From Octopus sinensis (lineage: Eukaryota), in contig NC_043008.1 in NCBI RefSeq assembly GCF_006345805.1, positions 18,848,001-18,912,000 of the forward strand: 64,000 bases of DNA, given 5' to 3'. Below, one piece after another: positions 1,521 through 18,335 of the stretch (within the stretch, counting starts at the first letter, position 1; the number at the start of each line of letters is the position of its first letter). Below the pieces are notes generated by a model. It saw nothing but the letters and a program-made list of their open reading frames with translations, ran no database searches and was not told where the DNA came from. The position numbers were made by a program, and so were the translations under genes.

Positions 1521-1692
1521 TAGGGGGAGTTTACGAAAGAAAACAAAAGACGAAGACAGGTGGTGTAAAAAACAAACAGATGTATTAGTATAACGCTCAG
1601 GAATAGAAAAAGTCTTTTACGTTTCGAGCCTACGCTCTTCTACAGAAAGGGACACAGAAAAAACAAGGAGAGAAAAAAATGTGCGTAGTCGC
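1521..1692 (-). mobile_element. PLE-like mini-element inserted in (TA)n, HHR-bearing (family H1)
   Basis: Flanked by (TA)n on both sides; homologous to 5801-5985 and 18141-18335. Confidence 0.75.
1614..1649 (-). ncRNA. minimal type I hammerhead ribozyme motif, A6U core variant
   Basis: Minus strand CUUU-CUGUAGA-A-GAGC-GUAG-GCUC-GAAA-CG-UA-AAAG: stem I CUUU/AAAG, 4-bp stem II, loopless palindromic stem III ACGU. Confidence 0.65.
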
Positions 1693-2389
1693 TATATATA
1701 TATATATATATATATATATATAATTAATTAATAAGGGTGAGAGAATTAGATACTAATTTAATAGTATATCTATTCAACACCAAGTGGCCTAGTGCTCCGA
1801 GAAACCTGGATTATTATAATATTTTATAATATATTATTTTATTTTATATTATATATATATATATATATATTCATTTTTTCAAACTAGTCACCATGCCTAA
1901 CCGCTAAATACCACGAGTTTCTTTTTTTCTCTCTGTTTATTTCATCGTGTTACTTTCTGTTTGACTGCATGTGACTATGCGAGATTGCGTGGGCGCATGC
2001 GCGCACGTATGCATGTGTGTGTGTGTCTGTGTGTGTCTGTGTAAACATGAGTCCATGTGAATGTATGCGAAATTATGTGCATATTTATCTATATGGCTTC
2101 CATATTGTGCAACATGTTTATATAGGAAAAGACATTCGTGACGGATTTTCCGCACGTCTCCATGTCAGGAATAAAATAATAAATATACAATAAATAGACC
2201 GAATAAAAGAATGTCTGTTTTTTTTTAATTCTGTTGCTTTTATTCGTTATTTCAGTGTATATCAATGTGACATTGTGTTTCTAATGCAATACACAAATCC
2301 GGATTGCTACAACTAAACTGAAGATCAAATTGTTGACAGATCGAGAGTCAAGCTGTCAATGGTTATTGCAATTTTCCTCGACTACCATT

Positions 2390-3020
2390 ATACATAAATA
2401 TATATATATATATATATATTATATATATATAATATATATATATATACATATGAATGTGTGTATATACATATGAGCGTATATACATATGAATGTGTGTATA
2501 TACACACATATATATATACATATATATACATACACATATACATGCATATATTTAGATTTATATATGCACATATATATATCTATATATATGTGTATATATA
2601 TATATATATATATATACATTTATATGCATATATGTATAGATATATGTACATATGTATGTATTATGCATAAATGTATATATATATATGTACCTGGATATAC
2701 ATATGTATTTGTATATGTGTACATATATACACACACACAAACACATATACATATATATATATAATATATATATATATATATATTATATATATATACATAT
2801 ATATATATATATACATACATATATATATATATATATATATATATATATATACATATGTACGTATGTGTGTATATATACACATGTACACAATATTACCGTC
2901 AATATATACATACACATGCACACAAACATACATATATACATATAGATATAAGTGTACACAAACACACACACACACACAAACACAAAGACACACATGCATA
3001 CACTTATATGCACACACCTA
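2390..3020. repeat. compound (TA)n/(CA)n microsatellite
   Basis: Direct inspection. Confidence 0.95.
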
Positions 3021-3361
3021 TTTCTTTTTTAATCTTGTTTGTGGTAACAGTGTTTTTCTATGATTTGTTTGGTTCTTTACATGTTTTTCCCCTTCATTAT
3101 TAAGCACTTTGAAAACGTGAAGCCCAGTTAATTTGTGACAGGATGGTGTTTACATGTATTTACTAATTCATAAACACACAATTATACCTGACACATGGCT
3201 TGTCACTATTCCCCTGCTACCTAAGCTTTTATAATGAATTATTAAAACTTCACATGGAAAACTTTCCTATAGATGTAGCTGTGTCAATTTGGCTTTCTAA
3301 CTTATATGGCTATGTTAATACATTTTTTAAAAACGAAATATGGCTTCATTGAATATATATG

Positions 3362-3800
3362 TAGATAGATAGATAGATAGATAGATAGATAGATAGATAG
3401 ATAGATGGATGGATGGATAGATAGATAGATAGATAGATAGATAGATAGATAGATAGATAGATAGATAGATAGATAGATAGATAGATAGATAGATAGATAG
3501 ATATATATATATAGATATATAGATAGATAGATAGATAGATAGATAGATAGATAGATAGATAGATAGATAGATTGATTGATAGATAGAGAGGTTGGTAGGT
3601 AGGTAGATAGATAGATTGGTAGGTAGGTAGATAGATAGATAGATAGATAGATAGATAGATAGATAGATAGATAGATAGATAGATAGATAGATAGATAGAT
3701 AGATAGAGAGAGACAGACAGAGAGAGACAGAGAGAGAGACAGACAGACAGACAGACAGATAGATAGATAGAGAGAGAGAGGGAGAGAAAGAGAGAGATAG
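3362..3800. repeat. (GATA)n/(GACA)n/(GA)n microsatellite
   Basis: Direct inspection. Confidence 0.95.
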
Positions 3801-4129
3801 ATTATTTAAAACTCATAAAGAAACGTATGGATGTGTGTATGTATGTCATGAATTCGTAATAACTACATTTGCCTCAAGGATATTCGCAAATCTTCTCATT
3901 TTTAAGTAAACACAGAAATATATGATGTAACCTTTTAGTAAATCAAAAATGATGTCCAAAAAACATGGCTTCCTTTTCGAAATTACATCACTTCCGTTCA
4001 TGCGAGAAGCTACGAAATCGGTCAAGAGTCCTATACTCCCTGCCTATTCAAATAAATTTGACAAAATGAGCTCAGTTGAAAAAAAATTGAAGAAAAGTGA
4101 AATGAGTGACATACAAAATAGAATCAAAA

Positions 4130-4715
4130 GGCGGCGAGCTGGCAGAAACGTTAGGGAAATACCGAGAGAAATGCGTAACCGTATTTCGTCTGCATTACGT
4201 TCTGAGTTTAAATTCTGCCGAGGTCGACTTTGCCTTTCATCCTTTCGGGGTCAAGTAAATAAGTACCAGTTGTGCACTGGGGCCGATATAATCGACTTAA
4301 TCCATATGTCTGTCCTTGTTTGTCCTCTCTGTGTTTAGCCCCTTGTGGGTAGTAAAGAAATTGGTATTTCGTTTGTCTTTGCGTTCTGAGTTCAAATTCC
4401 GCCTTAGGTCGATTTTGCCTTTCATCCTTTCGGGGTCGATAACTTAAGTAATTGTTGCGTACTGGAGTCGATCTAATCGACTGGCCCCCTCCCAAAAAAT
4501 TCCAAACCTTGTGCCAAGAGTAGAAAAGAATATATTCTTTAAGGCGGCAAGCTGGCAGAGACTTAGCGCTATTTTTTCTGTCGCTACGCTCTGAGTTCAA
4601 ATTCCGCCGGGATCGACCGGGGTCGATAAATTGAGTATCAGTGATTTCTAGGGTCAATCTAATCGACCGTTCATCTCCCTAAAAATTTTGAGCCTTGTGC
4701 CTAGTGTAGAAAAAA
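4130..4715 (+). mobile_element. SINE family A head-to-tail cluster (3 units)
   Basis: Unit 1 ends AGTAAAGAAA (4360) and runs into GGTATTTCGT of a headless unit with a different tail; unit 3 starts near 4543. Confidence 0.9.
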
Positions 4716-4969
4716 TAAAATAAAACCCTTTGGAGATCTCGGTGATCCGGCTTACGTCTCGTTGTTATTCTGATCAAAGATTTAGTTTAAGGGAAAATTT
4801 AAGCGGCTTGATTCCATAAAATACTTATTTGTTTTGAGAAAAGGATGACTGCCAATCTTGTTTCCATTAATTATAGGTTTCCATTGGTGAAATAAGCTAA
4901 GAAACTGGTAAACTATTTTCAAATTGCTGCTATTTCCATGCTTTCGCAAATTACCATCTACCTAGTTTC

Positions 4970-16449: not shown

Positions 16450-16617
16450 ATATAGCGGGCTTCTTTCTGTTTCCATCTACCAAAACCACTCACAAAGCTT
16501 TGGTCAGCCCGAGGCTATAGTAGAAGATACTAATCTAAGGTGCCATGCAGTGGGACTGAACCCGGAACCATGTGATCGGGAAGCAAGCTTCTTACCACAC
16601 AGCCACTCCTGCGCCTA
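16450..16617 (-). mobile_element. SINE family B, 5' half
   Basis: Head and body match 5525-5697. Confidence 0.85.
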
Positions 16618-17374
16618 TATATATCCTAGATATACATACATATATATATATGTATATATATATATTATATATATATATATATATATATATATATATATAT
16701 ATATATATATATATATGCAGCAGATTATGAACACACTATCACAGTAGCTACCTGAATGTGTCTATACACCTATAGACACACGTGCAGCCGCATATATAAA
16801 TCCATTTAAACACAGACAAACAGATATCTTCTATCACGGTATACACATTACATAATTCAAAATTTTATCAAATTGCCAATTAACTGTACAAGGCGCCTTT
16901 GTCGATATTTGTATATATGTATGTTTGCGTATATGTATGTTTATACATATATGTGTATATATTTTTAAAATGTTCCCCAGACACTTAAGTATTCAGAACC
17001 AGGGTTTCATCAGTTACTTTCTACAGTATTTTCCTTATTATTACAGCCATCTGCTATAGATAATATTCAAATGCTGTAAGTATTTCTAATGAATATTGAA
17101 ATTAATTGATATTTATTCCAGCAACGTAGCTTGAGTTGATAGAGCAAGAAATTATATTTCTTGTGTGAATTAGCTAATTGTTTGCTGATAAACTTAATTA
17201 TTAAATTACAGGCGTATTCAGATTGTTGACAAATGTCAGACTGAACTTTACAAGAAATAAATTGTTTTCGGAAAATTAAATATTTCAGGCTTGTATAATG
17301 AACCAAATATCTACAGAGAAGACTGATGCAATTGGGAACAGGGCAACTGATAAAATGTTGATATATATATATAT

Positions 17375-17632
17375 CTTATATGCATACCATTCTGCCTAAA
17401 AAATAGATCTACAGATGCAATATCCCTGCATATCTCACATCTATTTTCATTCTTCCACTTCACTCTCTATTTCATATCTTATCTAAATTAACTATTGCTT
17501 AACCGTTTTACTCACACCGTCTCTGATGAAAGGATATATATAATATACCGGAAACAGCTGTAAGACCTTCTATTTATAAATGTTCTAAAATCTTTCACAG
17601 CCTTGGATTTTTATCTCATTCAAAAAAAATTT
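17375..17632 (+). mobile_element. PLE-like pseudo-LTR island between (TA)n tracts
   Basis: TA-flanked; contains the HHR at 17519-17566. Confidence 0.65.
17519..17566 (+). ncRNA. type I hammerhead ribozyme motif with palindromic stem III
   Basis: GUCU-CUGAUGA-(A AGG AU-rich CCG)-GAAA-CAGCUG-UA-AGAC: stem I GUCU/AGAC, GUA cleavage triplet. Confidence 0.75.
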
Positions 17633-17809
17633 ATATATATATATAAAGTACACGCAGTTTTGGGACATATTCTCTTCTATGGATCGTTTTACTCGGAGAA
17701 GATATTTGTGAAGTGTTGTATTACTTCTGAATACTGTCCCGATATCATATGTACCATATATCTTAGGCTGTATGGATGGATATATGTGTTTATGTGTGTG
17801 TTATATAAA

Positions 17810-18100
17810 GATGCGAGGCCTGGCGGTTAGAGTGTTGTACACTCGATCGCAAGAGCATGGTGTCGATTCCCGCATTGGCGGTTTCGTTGTGTGTTTTTCA
17901 CAAAACCTTTCATTTCACCTCGCTTCAATCCACACAGGTGTAAATGGATGACCCTGTGACGGATTGGCGTTCCAATCAGTTGGAGTATTGCCCCTGCTCA
18001 CCTAACCAGCAGATTAGCGTCATTCGAAAGCTACAACAATGCAAGGAAGTGCATTGTGATAAGTGGTGTATAACAACTTTCGTTAGTCTTGTCGATACAC
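17810..18100 (+). mobile_element. degenerate SINE family C
   Basis: GGTTAGAGTGTTG...CGATTCCCG head and CCTGTGACGGATTGGCGTTCC body. Confidence 0.7.
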
Positions 18101-18140
18101 TGATACATGTGGGTGGTTGTGTGCGTACATATATATATAT

Positions 18141-18335
18141 AACGGGAAGCTTTATGAAAATAAACAAAAGACGAAGGCAGGTGGAAAACAAACGAACAAT
18201 TGTATTAGTATGGCGCTCAGGAAATATAAATGAAACAAGTATTTAACGTTTCGAGCCTACGCTCTTCAACAGAAAGATACACAGAGAGAGAAAAACACAG
18301 AAAGAAGGAGAGAAAAAAAATGCGTGCAGTAGCTA
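18141..18335 (-). mobile_element. PLE-like mini-element H1 in (TA)n; HHR motif at 18241-18276
   Basis: Core CUGUUGA-A-GAGC-GUAG-GCUC-GAAA-CGUU-AAA; TA-flanked on both sides. Confidence 0.75.

What the first reader, a model, noticed from the sequence alone, without database searches (positions are those of the whole stretch)
1614..18276. Three-copy HHR family with fixed A6U (CUGUNGA) core while N7 varies freely
Seen: minus-strand cores read CUGUAGA (1614-1649), CUGUCGA (5894-5929) and CUGUUGA (18241-18276). The normally invariant A6 is U in all three, whereas the unconstrained position 7 differs in each. GAAA, stem II GAGC/GCUC and a loopless ACGU stem III are retained. A relative at 8107 has canonical CUGACGA. 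Inference: the lineage amplified with an unusual core. It may be an obligate-dimer variant ribozyme, or a fold kept for reverse-transcriptase recognition rather than catalysis.
Basis: partly seen in the sequence, partly recalled or inferred. Interest (0 to 1): 0.75.

Follow-up and report, generated by a model that had tools for sequence, protein, structure and literature searches.

The report
Abundant hammerhead repeat with U6 core
A very abundant short animal repeat carries a hammerhead-ribozyme motif in which one normally invariant core base (A6) is U throughout the family while the positions known to be free vary, so it is likely a slow, helper-dependent self-cutting RNA variant that searches for the standard core would miss, though cutting is untested.

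Summary
The three cores are real: CUGUAGA, CUGUCGA and CUGUUGA. Each lies in a 175-195-nt non-coding repeat set in (TA)n. One detail is wrong: copy 2 reads GCUA, which breaks G10.1-C11.1. The motif matches the minimal hammerheads of Penelope-like elements (extra base after A9, loopless ACGU, short stem I) except for A6.

No other letter reaches 3% at position 6, or at C3, U4, G5, G8 or A9. N7 shows all four letters (U 26-50%, C 22-53%, A 16-23%, G 4-10%), and N17 varies A/U. G8>A stays under 3%, so CpG decay does not explain N7. The same scaffold in unrelated metagenome contigs has A6 in 118 of 120 matches.

U6 therefore marks the whole family, and the junction appears to have stayed constrained after A6 was lost. 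U6 fixation alone is not above background (88% of sites are equally fixed). Cleavage, dimerisation and a parent reverse transcriptase are not shown. Most likely a slow, protein-assisted variant (0.5). Rivals are a non-catalytic fold (0.25) and a dead passenger (0.2). I found no natural A6U in print, but one key paper was unavailable.

The parts
1523..1695 (-). Copy 1 of the short repeat, between (TA)n runs (5' end approximate)
1614..1649 (-). Minimal type I hammerhead motif of copy 1: C3 1645, U6 1642, A7 1641, G12 1625, A17 1618; stem I 4 bp, stem II intact
   Evidence: 36.6 bits
5801..5985 (-). Copy 2 of the repeat (the reference for the contig census)
5894..5929 (-). Hammerhead motif of copy 2: C3 5925, U6 5922, C7 5921, G12 5905, A17 5898; private C11.1>A at 5906 and G>A at 5894
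   Evidence: 26.9 bits
18142..18335 (-). Copy 3 of the repeat, with two small insertions
18241..18276 (-). Hammerhead motif of copy 3: C3 18272, U6 18269, U7 18268, G12 18252, U17 18245
   Evidence: 40.7 bits
8036..8236 (+). Distant relative with canonical A6 core (C3 8107, G12 8126, U17 8133), same stem II strands, 3-nt loop, stem I broken; ends approximate
   Evidence: 35.4 bits
1594..1598 (-). GAGCG motif about 20 nt after N17, shared by all four elements (also 5873-5877 -, 18214-18218 -, 8162-8166 +); role unknown
1457..1522 (.). (TA)n microsatellite at the 3' end of copy 1 (likely the insertion target)
5696..5800 (.). (TA)n microsatellite at the 3' end of copy 2 (likely the insertion target)

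Best explanation
These are dispersed copies of an abundant non-coding repeat, likely the pseudo-LTR remnant or non-autonomous offshoot of a (TA)n-targeting Penelope-like retroelement, whose minimal hammerhead motif has U at position 6 across the family and likely still works as a slow ribozyme that would need a partner copy and a helper protein to cut. Shown: the anatomy, the family-wide U6, free N7 and N17, and fixed C3, U4, G5, G8, A9, A13, A14, A15.1 and U16.1. Inferred: (1) A6U arose once in a source element; (2) several source lineages then diverged at N7 and N17 but not at the catalytic positions, which means selection on the hammerhead junction continued after A6 was lost; (3) two copies in one precursor or in trans pair through the ACGU palindrome, and the element's own protein would chaperone folding; (4) cleavage after N17 would be slow, leaving mostly uncut RNA for reverse transcription that starts about 95-103 nt downstream, which would explain the shared 3' end; (5) most genomic copies, such as copy 2, are decaying, inert monomers.
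For: Census: 9,962, 9,133, 3,995 and 2,251 contigs laid. There is no row of 3% or more at 5925-5922, 5920-5914 or 5904-5902, or at 5899. N7 has four letters in 4 of 4 runs. N17 is U in 4/20/25/31% and C in 0.5-3%, with no G row. Of the 13 junction positions, the two with another letter at 20% or more are the two known to be free (P = 1/78). At least 3 changes at N7 plus 1 at N17 all fall on these two sites (P = 5.6e-4 under equal rates). Core depth is 2.0-5.9 times flank depth in 3 of 4 runs (0.8-0.9 in X3), and loose ends at 5887, 5888 and 5929 show sister subfamilies with other flanks that were laid on the core, where A6 still stays under 3%. The scaffold is a real hammerhead type: in 33 unrelated motifs stem I covaries (41 double-change cells against 23.1 in shuffles, 0 of 500). 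It matches the published consensus 'CUGANGAH G...C GAAAN palindrome NUH' with U-rich and AU-rich flanks (PMC4209133 supplement). Position-6 pyrimidines are slow, not dead: natural A6C cleaves at under 0.1 per min (PMC3088659), and an A6C mutant runs at 3.6e-6 per min in 0.3 mM Mg but 0.33 in 10 mM Mg and 0.18 in 0.3 mM Mn (PMC7151607). A Penelope hammerhead is protein-assisted, its cleavage is not needed for insertion in vitro, and RT starts 111-118 nt into the ORF with the cut at +26, i.e. 85-92 nt past the cut (PMC11167929). Here the 3' end lies 95, 97 and 103 nt past N17.
Against: No cleavage data. All single mutants in the CUGA turn showed low activity in one hammerhead (PMC9901934). U6 can pair with A15.1: in the isolated motif a rod helix U4-G16.2, G5-C15.2, U6-A15.1 has probability 0.5-0.95 in copies 1 and 3, against 0.0-0.08 with A6. 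With 25-nt flanks it drops to 0.03-0.18. U6 fixation is not above background (132 of 150 sites have no variant row). G12 has a row (G>A 1.5-3.9%), which I read as CpG decay because C11.1>U mirrors it. The probability tests are post hoc, use depth-weighted contig shares without haplotypes, and one N7 change (C>U) sits in a CpG; without it P is about 0.004 (arithmetic by hand). No RT or GIY-YIG gene is linked: 0 of 129 window frames hit a relevant Pfam family, and no whole genome was available. The copies are dispersed monomers, 4 and 12 kb apart, not tandems.
Confidence: 0.5

Rival explanations
1. The motif no longer cuts but is kept as a structural handle for the Penelope RT/endonuclease protein. 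It may be the hammerhead-like junction, or a rod in which U6 pairs with A15.1 on top of the tandem G-A pairs. Losing cleavage would keep the whole template intact.
For: Cleavage-dead mutants insert normally in vitro and uncut RNA is the main substrate; the minimal active RNA of that element starts at +20 of the ORF, inside the hammerhead region (PMC11167929). U6 creates a predicted rod fold in the isolated motif. The pattern of fixed and free sites shows constraint but not chemistry.
Against: A rod would leave C3 and U16.1 unpaired and allow G17, yet none of these varies at 3% or more. The rod is not favoured once flanks are included. In the published element, removing the CUGANGA strand (5' truncation to +20) still allowed insertion, so that strand was not needed for protein recognition.
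Confidence: 0.25
2. Dead passenger: a founder copy lost A6 and with it the activity, and amplified because cleavage is dispensable. U6 is shared by descent only. N7 and N17 diversity reflects a few lineage accidents or local mutability.
For: 88% of covered positions are as fixed as position 6. Only a handful of source-lineage changes underlie the N7 and N17 shares. C7-G8 is a CpG. Stem I's fourth pair is broken in 6-12% of depth (5894 G>U). Lone decayed U6 copies occur in A6 families (L085 against L022 and L030).
Against: Four N7 states, two of them transversions (A 16-23%, G 4-10%), sit directly beside a fixed U6 and a fixed G8. G8>A is under 3%, whereas CpG decay is symmetric at 5900/5901 and 5905/5906. 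The core is conserved into sister subfamilies whose flanks no longer align (tables 2 and 7).
Confidence: 0.2

Closest known systems
Minimal hammerheads (min-HHR) of metazoan Penelope-like elements (Cervera and De la Pena 2014, PMC4209133)
   Same: Type I topology, unpaired base between 9 and 10.1, G10.1-C11.1, loopless palindromic 15.2-16.2, short stem I, U-rich 5' and AU-rich 3' flank, mostly single dispersed copies, predicted dimer activity.
   Different: A6 is U. All 44 of 44 alignment rows I saw in the supplement have A6, but their search fixed the core, so that count is partly circular. Their reported core variant is U3-A8. No RT gene is linked here.
Bcep176 phage hammerhead, natural A6C (Perreault 2011, PMC3088659; PMC7151607)
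   Same: A natural pyrimidine at position 6; shows that the position can change with low but real, Mn-favoured activity.
   Different: A single phage motif with C, not U. Here the change is carried by a high-copy animal repeat family with several N7 states.
Hammerhead of the Anolis Poseidon element PAc (PMC11167929)
   Same: Penelope hammerhead roughly 90 nt upstream of the element's 3' end; AT-rich targets.
   Different: PAc has a tested, protein-assisted ribozyme overlapping an ORF start. This repeat has no ORF and is untested.
Non-LTR retrozymes (PMC7229834; bioRxiv 10.64898/2026.07.22.740005)
   Same: Short non-autonomous animal repeats with a type I hammerhead, proposed to derive from Penelope pseudo-LTRs.
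   Different: Retrozymes are tandem arrays with canonical hammerheads that make circular RNA. These copies are dispersed monomers with a minimal, non-canonical motif; no joints were seen in contigs.

Membership tests
Penelope minimal hammerhead (min-HHR) | Core box CUGANGA with invariant A6 | tested here: not met
   U6 in 3 of 3 copies and no other letter at 3% or more in 4 of 4 runs
Penelope minimal hammerhead (min-HHR) | C3-G8 pair, U4, G5, A9, G12-A13-A14-A15.1, U16.1 | tested here: met
   Present in all three copies; no variant rows except G12>A at 1.5-3.9%
Penelope minimal hammerhead (min-HHR) | Unpaired nucleotide between A9 and G10.1 | tested here: met
   A in all four window motifs
Penelope minimal hammerhead (min-HHR) | Stem II closed by G10.1-C11.1 | tested here: met
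   Copies 1 and 3, and 94-99% of laid depth; copy 2 has a private A
Penelope minimal hammerhead (min-HHR) | Palindromic 15.1-16.1 without loop III | tested here: met
   ACGU in 3 of 3 copies; 15.2 and 16.2 each changed in 3-13% of depth
Penelope minimal hammerhead (min-HHR) | NUH cleavage triplet (H not G) and short stem I | tested here: met
   GUA, GUA, GUU; no G17 row; stem I 3-4 bp in the copies, 5 bp with the majority letters
Penelope minimal hammerhead (min-HHR) | Lies in the pseudo-LTR of an element with RT and GIY-YIG ORF | tested here: inconclusive
   No such ORF in the window; no genome held; (TA)n targets and 3' geometry fit
Hammerhead ribozymes | Self-cleavage 3' of N17 | not testable with these tools
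   No raw RNA reads were offered; contigs cannot show ends
Rfam hammerhead families | Match to an Rfam covariance model | tested here: inconclusive
   No match for copy 1, but none for the A6 motif at 8107 either, so Rfam does not cover this minimal type
Non-LTR retrozymes | Tandem repeat units each with a type I hammerhead; circular RNA | tested here: not met
   Three isolated monomers; none of 15 tandem arrays in 1000-19000 holds the element; no joints listed

The most novel reading that the evidence does not exclude
A high-copy animal retroelement lineage has kept a hammerhead under selection after swapping A6 for U, turning it into a conditional ribozyme. It rests as a U6-A15.1 rod and cuts only when a partner copy, the element's protein or a particular metal ion refolds it. 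Whole families of such CUGUNGA ribozymes would have been missed by every survey that fixes CUGANGA.
Probability: 0.3. Interest if true: 0.75.

Novelty: new variant of a known kind. Interest (0 to 1): 0.55.

Why it matters
Why Penelope-like elements keep hammerheads is an open question: they cut poorly in vitro and cleavage is dispensable for insertion (PMC4209133, PMC11167929). A family that lost a core base yet kept the rest of the junction constrained is a natural experiment that separates chemistry from fold. A handful of short RNA constructs would show whether selection acts on cleavage or on shape. If U6 cuts, the natural core consensus widens, and search strings such as '^cuganga' (used in PMC8557442) undercount ribozymes in animal genomes. 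If it does not, it is a case of a ribozyme fold kept for another job. The single window copies are probably inert.

Tried and rejected
Rfam scans: the whole-window scan listed 150 of 299 matches, essentially microsatellite-driven microRNA noise with no hammerhead. Local scans of the U6 and the A6 motif found none either, so they are uninformative.

No whole genome is held, so no count of assembled copies and no search for the parent element.

Pfam on 129 stop-to-stop frames of 70 aa or more (low-complexity frames left out): 2 weak hits below cut-off, no RT.

Pattern scans: viral contigs 0 matches. Prokaryote genomes 4 matches, with position 6 C, A, C, G; these were not used. None of the 119 metagenome loci has the GUAG loop of this family.

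No RNA holder listed. X14 is RNA only by guess, so nothing is claimed on expression.

CpG decay as the cause of N7 variation: rejected (G8>A under 3%, two transversion states). A shifted register that would restore an A at position 6: rejected by alignment to 8107 and to the 33-motif model. The downstream GAGC as a switch against stem II: pair probability only 0.00-0.16. Predicted dimers did not form the ACGU double hammerhead as the lowest-energy state; the ACGU duplex is -1.7 kcal/mol.

Look-ups of earlier findings by place and by sequence returned nothing.
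Full report
OBSERVATION. The three minus-strand cores are at the stated places: CTGTAGA from 1645, CTGTCGA from 5925, CTGTTGA from 18272. Each is followed by an extra A, GAGC, a GTAG loop, GCTC (GCTA in copy 2), GAAA, CGT and N17 (A, A, T). The 27-base pattern occurs 3 times against 0 in 100 shuffles. Each motif lies in a 175-195-nt element between (TA)n runs; the copies are 77-87% identical. Among the 181 gap-free columns of the three copies, 53 vary and 2 have three states: N7 and the fourth pair of stem I. 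The A6 motif at 8107 belongs to a distant relative. The window is microsatellite-rich, 27-41% G+C in 2-kb bins, with no recognisable protein gene. Its other repeats look octopus-like to me, but that label is recalled and comes from no call.

WHAT THE MOTIF IS. The scaffold, with positions 6 and 7 left free, was scanned in metagenome contigs. It gave 119 loci and 120 matches; the scan covered 52 of 64 parts. Position 6 is A in 118, C in 1 and U in 1 of 120; position 7 takes all four letters. The matches fall into 38 crude families, and the lone U6 match has A6 relatives. In 33 representatives (near-duplicates of the largest family left out), stem I, which the pattern did not fix, covaries: 41 double-change cells against 23.1 in shuffles, 0 of 500 as high, and all slid registers lower. 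A model from these 33 scores the window's four motifs at 40.7, 36.6, 35.4 and 26.9 bits, with the next site at 13.1. The anatomy is that of the Penelope minimal hammerhead of Cervera and De la Pena. So position 6 is correctly numbered and U there is a real departure.

FAMILY CENSUS. No genome was held, so I laid contigs of 4 of the 24 listed runs (three organism labels) on copy 2 at 80% likeness, listing letters from 3%. Laid: 9,962 (X3, about 80% of the run read), 9,133 (X2), 3,995 (X7) and 2,251 (X14). The method sees single differences: copy 2's private letters at 5827, 5855, 5894 and 5906 are corrected at 82-100%. Position 6 (5922) has no row in any run, nor do C3, U4, G5, G8, A9, the extra A, 10.1-10.4, A13, A14, A15.1 or U16.1.

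N7 reads U in 26.0/28.7/45.4/49.8%, A in 16.5/23.1/21.8/21.8%, G in 4.3/10.4/6.8/6.7% and C in the remaining 53/38/26/22%. It is the only site with four letters and the most diverse of those computed (0.71, next 0.50). N17 reads U in 3.8/20.0/25.3/31.3% and C in 0.5-3.1%, with no G row. CpG decay is visible and symmetric elsewhere (15.2/16.2: 12-13% each in X3 and X2; 11.1/G12: about 4% each), but G8>A is under 3%, so it cannot explain N7. Core depth exceeds flank depth 2.0-5.9-fold in X2, X7 and X14, though not in X3 (0.8-0.9), and loose ends cluster at the core's edges. Sister subfamilies with other flanks therefore share the U6 core. Summed depth over single-copy depth gives about 4-11 x 10^4; the tool warns that this is no copy number, so I claim only thousands of distinct contigs and probably tens of thousands of copies.

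WHAT THE CENSUS DOES AND DOES NOT SHOW. It shows that U6 is the family state, not three accidents. It does not show selection for U: 18 of 150 covered positions have a non-private variant row, so any given site is fixed with probability 0.88. What it suggests is that constraint on the junction outlasted A6. All N7 states sit beside a fixed U6, so at least three N7 changes and one N17 change spread after A6U, while the other 11 junction positions did not change. P is 1/78 by sites and 5.6e-4 by events, or about 0.004 if the CpG-type C>U change is dropped (by hand). These tests are post hoc, rest on few lineage events, treat the G12 row as decay, and use depth-weighted contigs without haplotypes. 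A6 source elements under 3%, or with another loop as at 8107, are invisible.

MECHANISM. The 3' ends lie 95, 97 and 103 nt past N17, close to the 85-92 nt between cut site and RT start in the Anolis element. (TA)n is a known target of several Penelope clades. I infer a pseudo-LTR remnant or non-autonomous offshoot copied by a Penelope RT; the parent was not found. For the motif, position-6 pyrimidines are known to be slow but rescuable (A6C), and a Penelope hammerhead cuts only with its protein, while cutting is dispensable for insertion in vitro. A slow, assisted, dimer-dependent ribozyme fits all of this (0.5). Against it, CUGA-turn mutants were low in a deep scan, and U6 can pair with A15.1 to give a rod in the isolated motif (probability 0.5-0.95 in copies 1 and 3, 0.03-0.04 in copy 2; 0.18 or less with flanks). 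A fold kept for protein binding (0.25) and a dead passenger (0.2) remain open.

NOVELTY. I found no report of a natural A6U hammerhead. Searches: 'A6U' with hammerhead (2 unrelated papers listed); the five CUGUNGA spellings (20 of 56 listed, none on a natural core variant by title or abstract start); and text searches of the supplements of PMC4209133 (file 1 not searchable) and PMC3088659 (figures are not held). Lunse et al. 2017, the paper on small Penelope hammerhead variants, is not held and could already list A6U. Known natural core variants include U3-A8 and A6C. Because A6 is a defining position and is not met, I file this as a variant derived from the Penelope minimal hammerhead, not as a shown ribozyme.

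WHAT I READ. PMC4209133: main text parts 1-2 of 4, supplement file 2 part 2 of 3. PMC11167929: the whole main-text section. PMC3088659: section 8 and passages. bioRxiv 10.64898/2026.07.22.740005: part 1 of 5. Passages only: PMC7151607 (with Table 1), PMC9901934, PMC8557442, PMC6765202, PMC7229834, PMC13282606, PMC10085705, PMC11014351, PMC12192606, PMC6466107. Hammerhead numbering, the free status of N7 and the tandem G-A pairs of domain 2 are from established knowledge; the NUH rule is.

VERDICT. Real, family-wide and apparently undescribed core variant in a known kind of element; function untested. Interest 0.55.

Noticed in passing
window 39496-39542 (-) and about 42220-42250 (-): A second, unrelated hammerhead family: CUGAUGA core from 39537, and a relative from 42246 with CCGAUGA (U4C) that is cut off by (TA)n just after GAAAC. 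Their stem II strands differ but still pair.
   Followed up: partly
window 47096-47140 (+): CUGACGA ... GAAAC candidate with a long stem II region; not scored by the model.
   Followed up: no
window 1594-1598, 5873-5877, 18214-18218 (-), 8162-8166 (+); loci L001-L119: GAGC recurs 20-30 nt after N17 in all four window elements, and 12-55 nt downstream in 19 of 38 crude metagenome families (2 of 38 in an upstream control). It is complementary to the 3' strand of stem II; folding does not favour that pairing. Covariation could not be tested because stem II was fixed in the pattern.
   Followed up: partly
window 5900-5901: Positions 15.2 and 16.2 each change in 12-13% of depth in X3 and X2, more than other CpG sites (under 3% to 4.5%). 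Either stronger CpG decay or a linked U-A swap that keeps the palindrome; haplotypes are needed.
   Followed up: partly
window 5909-5922, runs X7 and X14: These two runs have higher core-to-flank depth (3.8-5.9), more U7 and U17 and less CpG decay than X3 and X2. If they are RNA runs (only a guess for X14), transcribed copies may come mainly from younger sister subfamilies.
   Followed up: no
window 41914-42033: Perfect inverted repeat with arms of about 44 bp (seen in the alignment).
   Followed up: no
window 15082-15506: Tandem repeat of a 182-bp unit, 2.3 copies, 88% matches.
   Followed up: no
L052 401-486: Two hammerhead motifs on opposite strands about 30 bp apart, the inverted arrangement described for Penelope insertions.
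   Followed up: no
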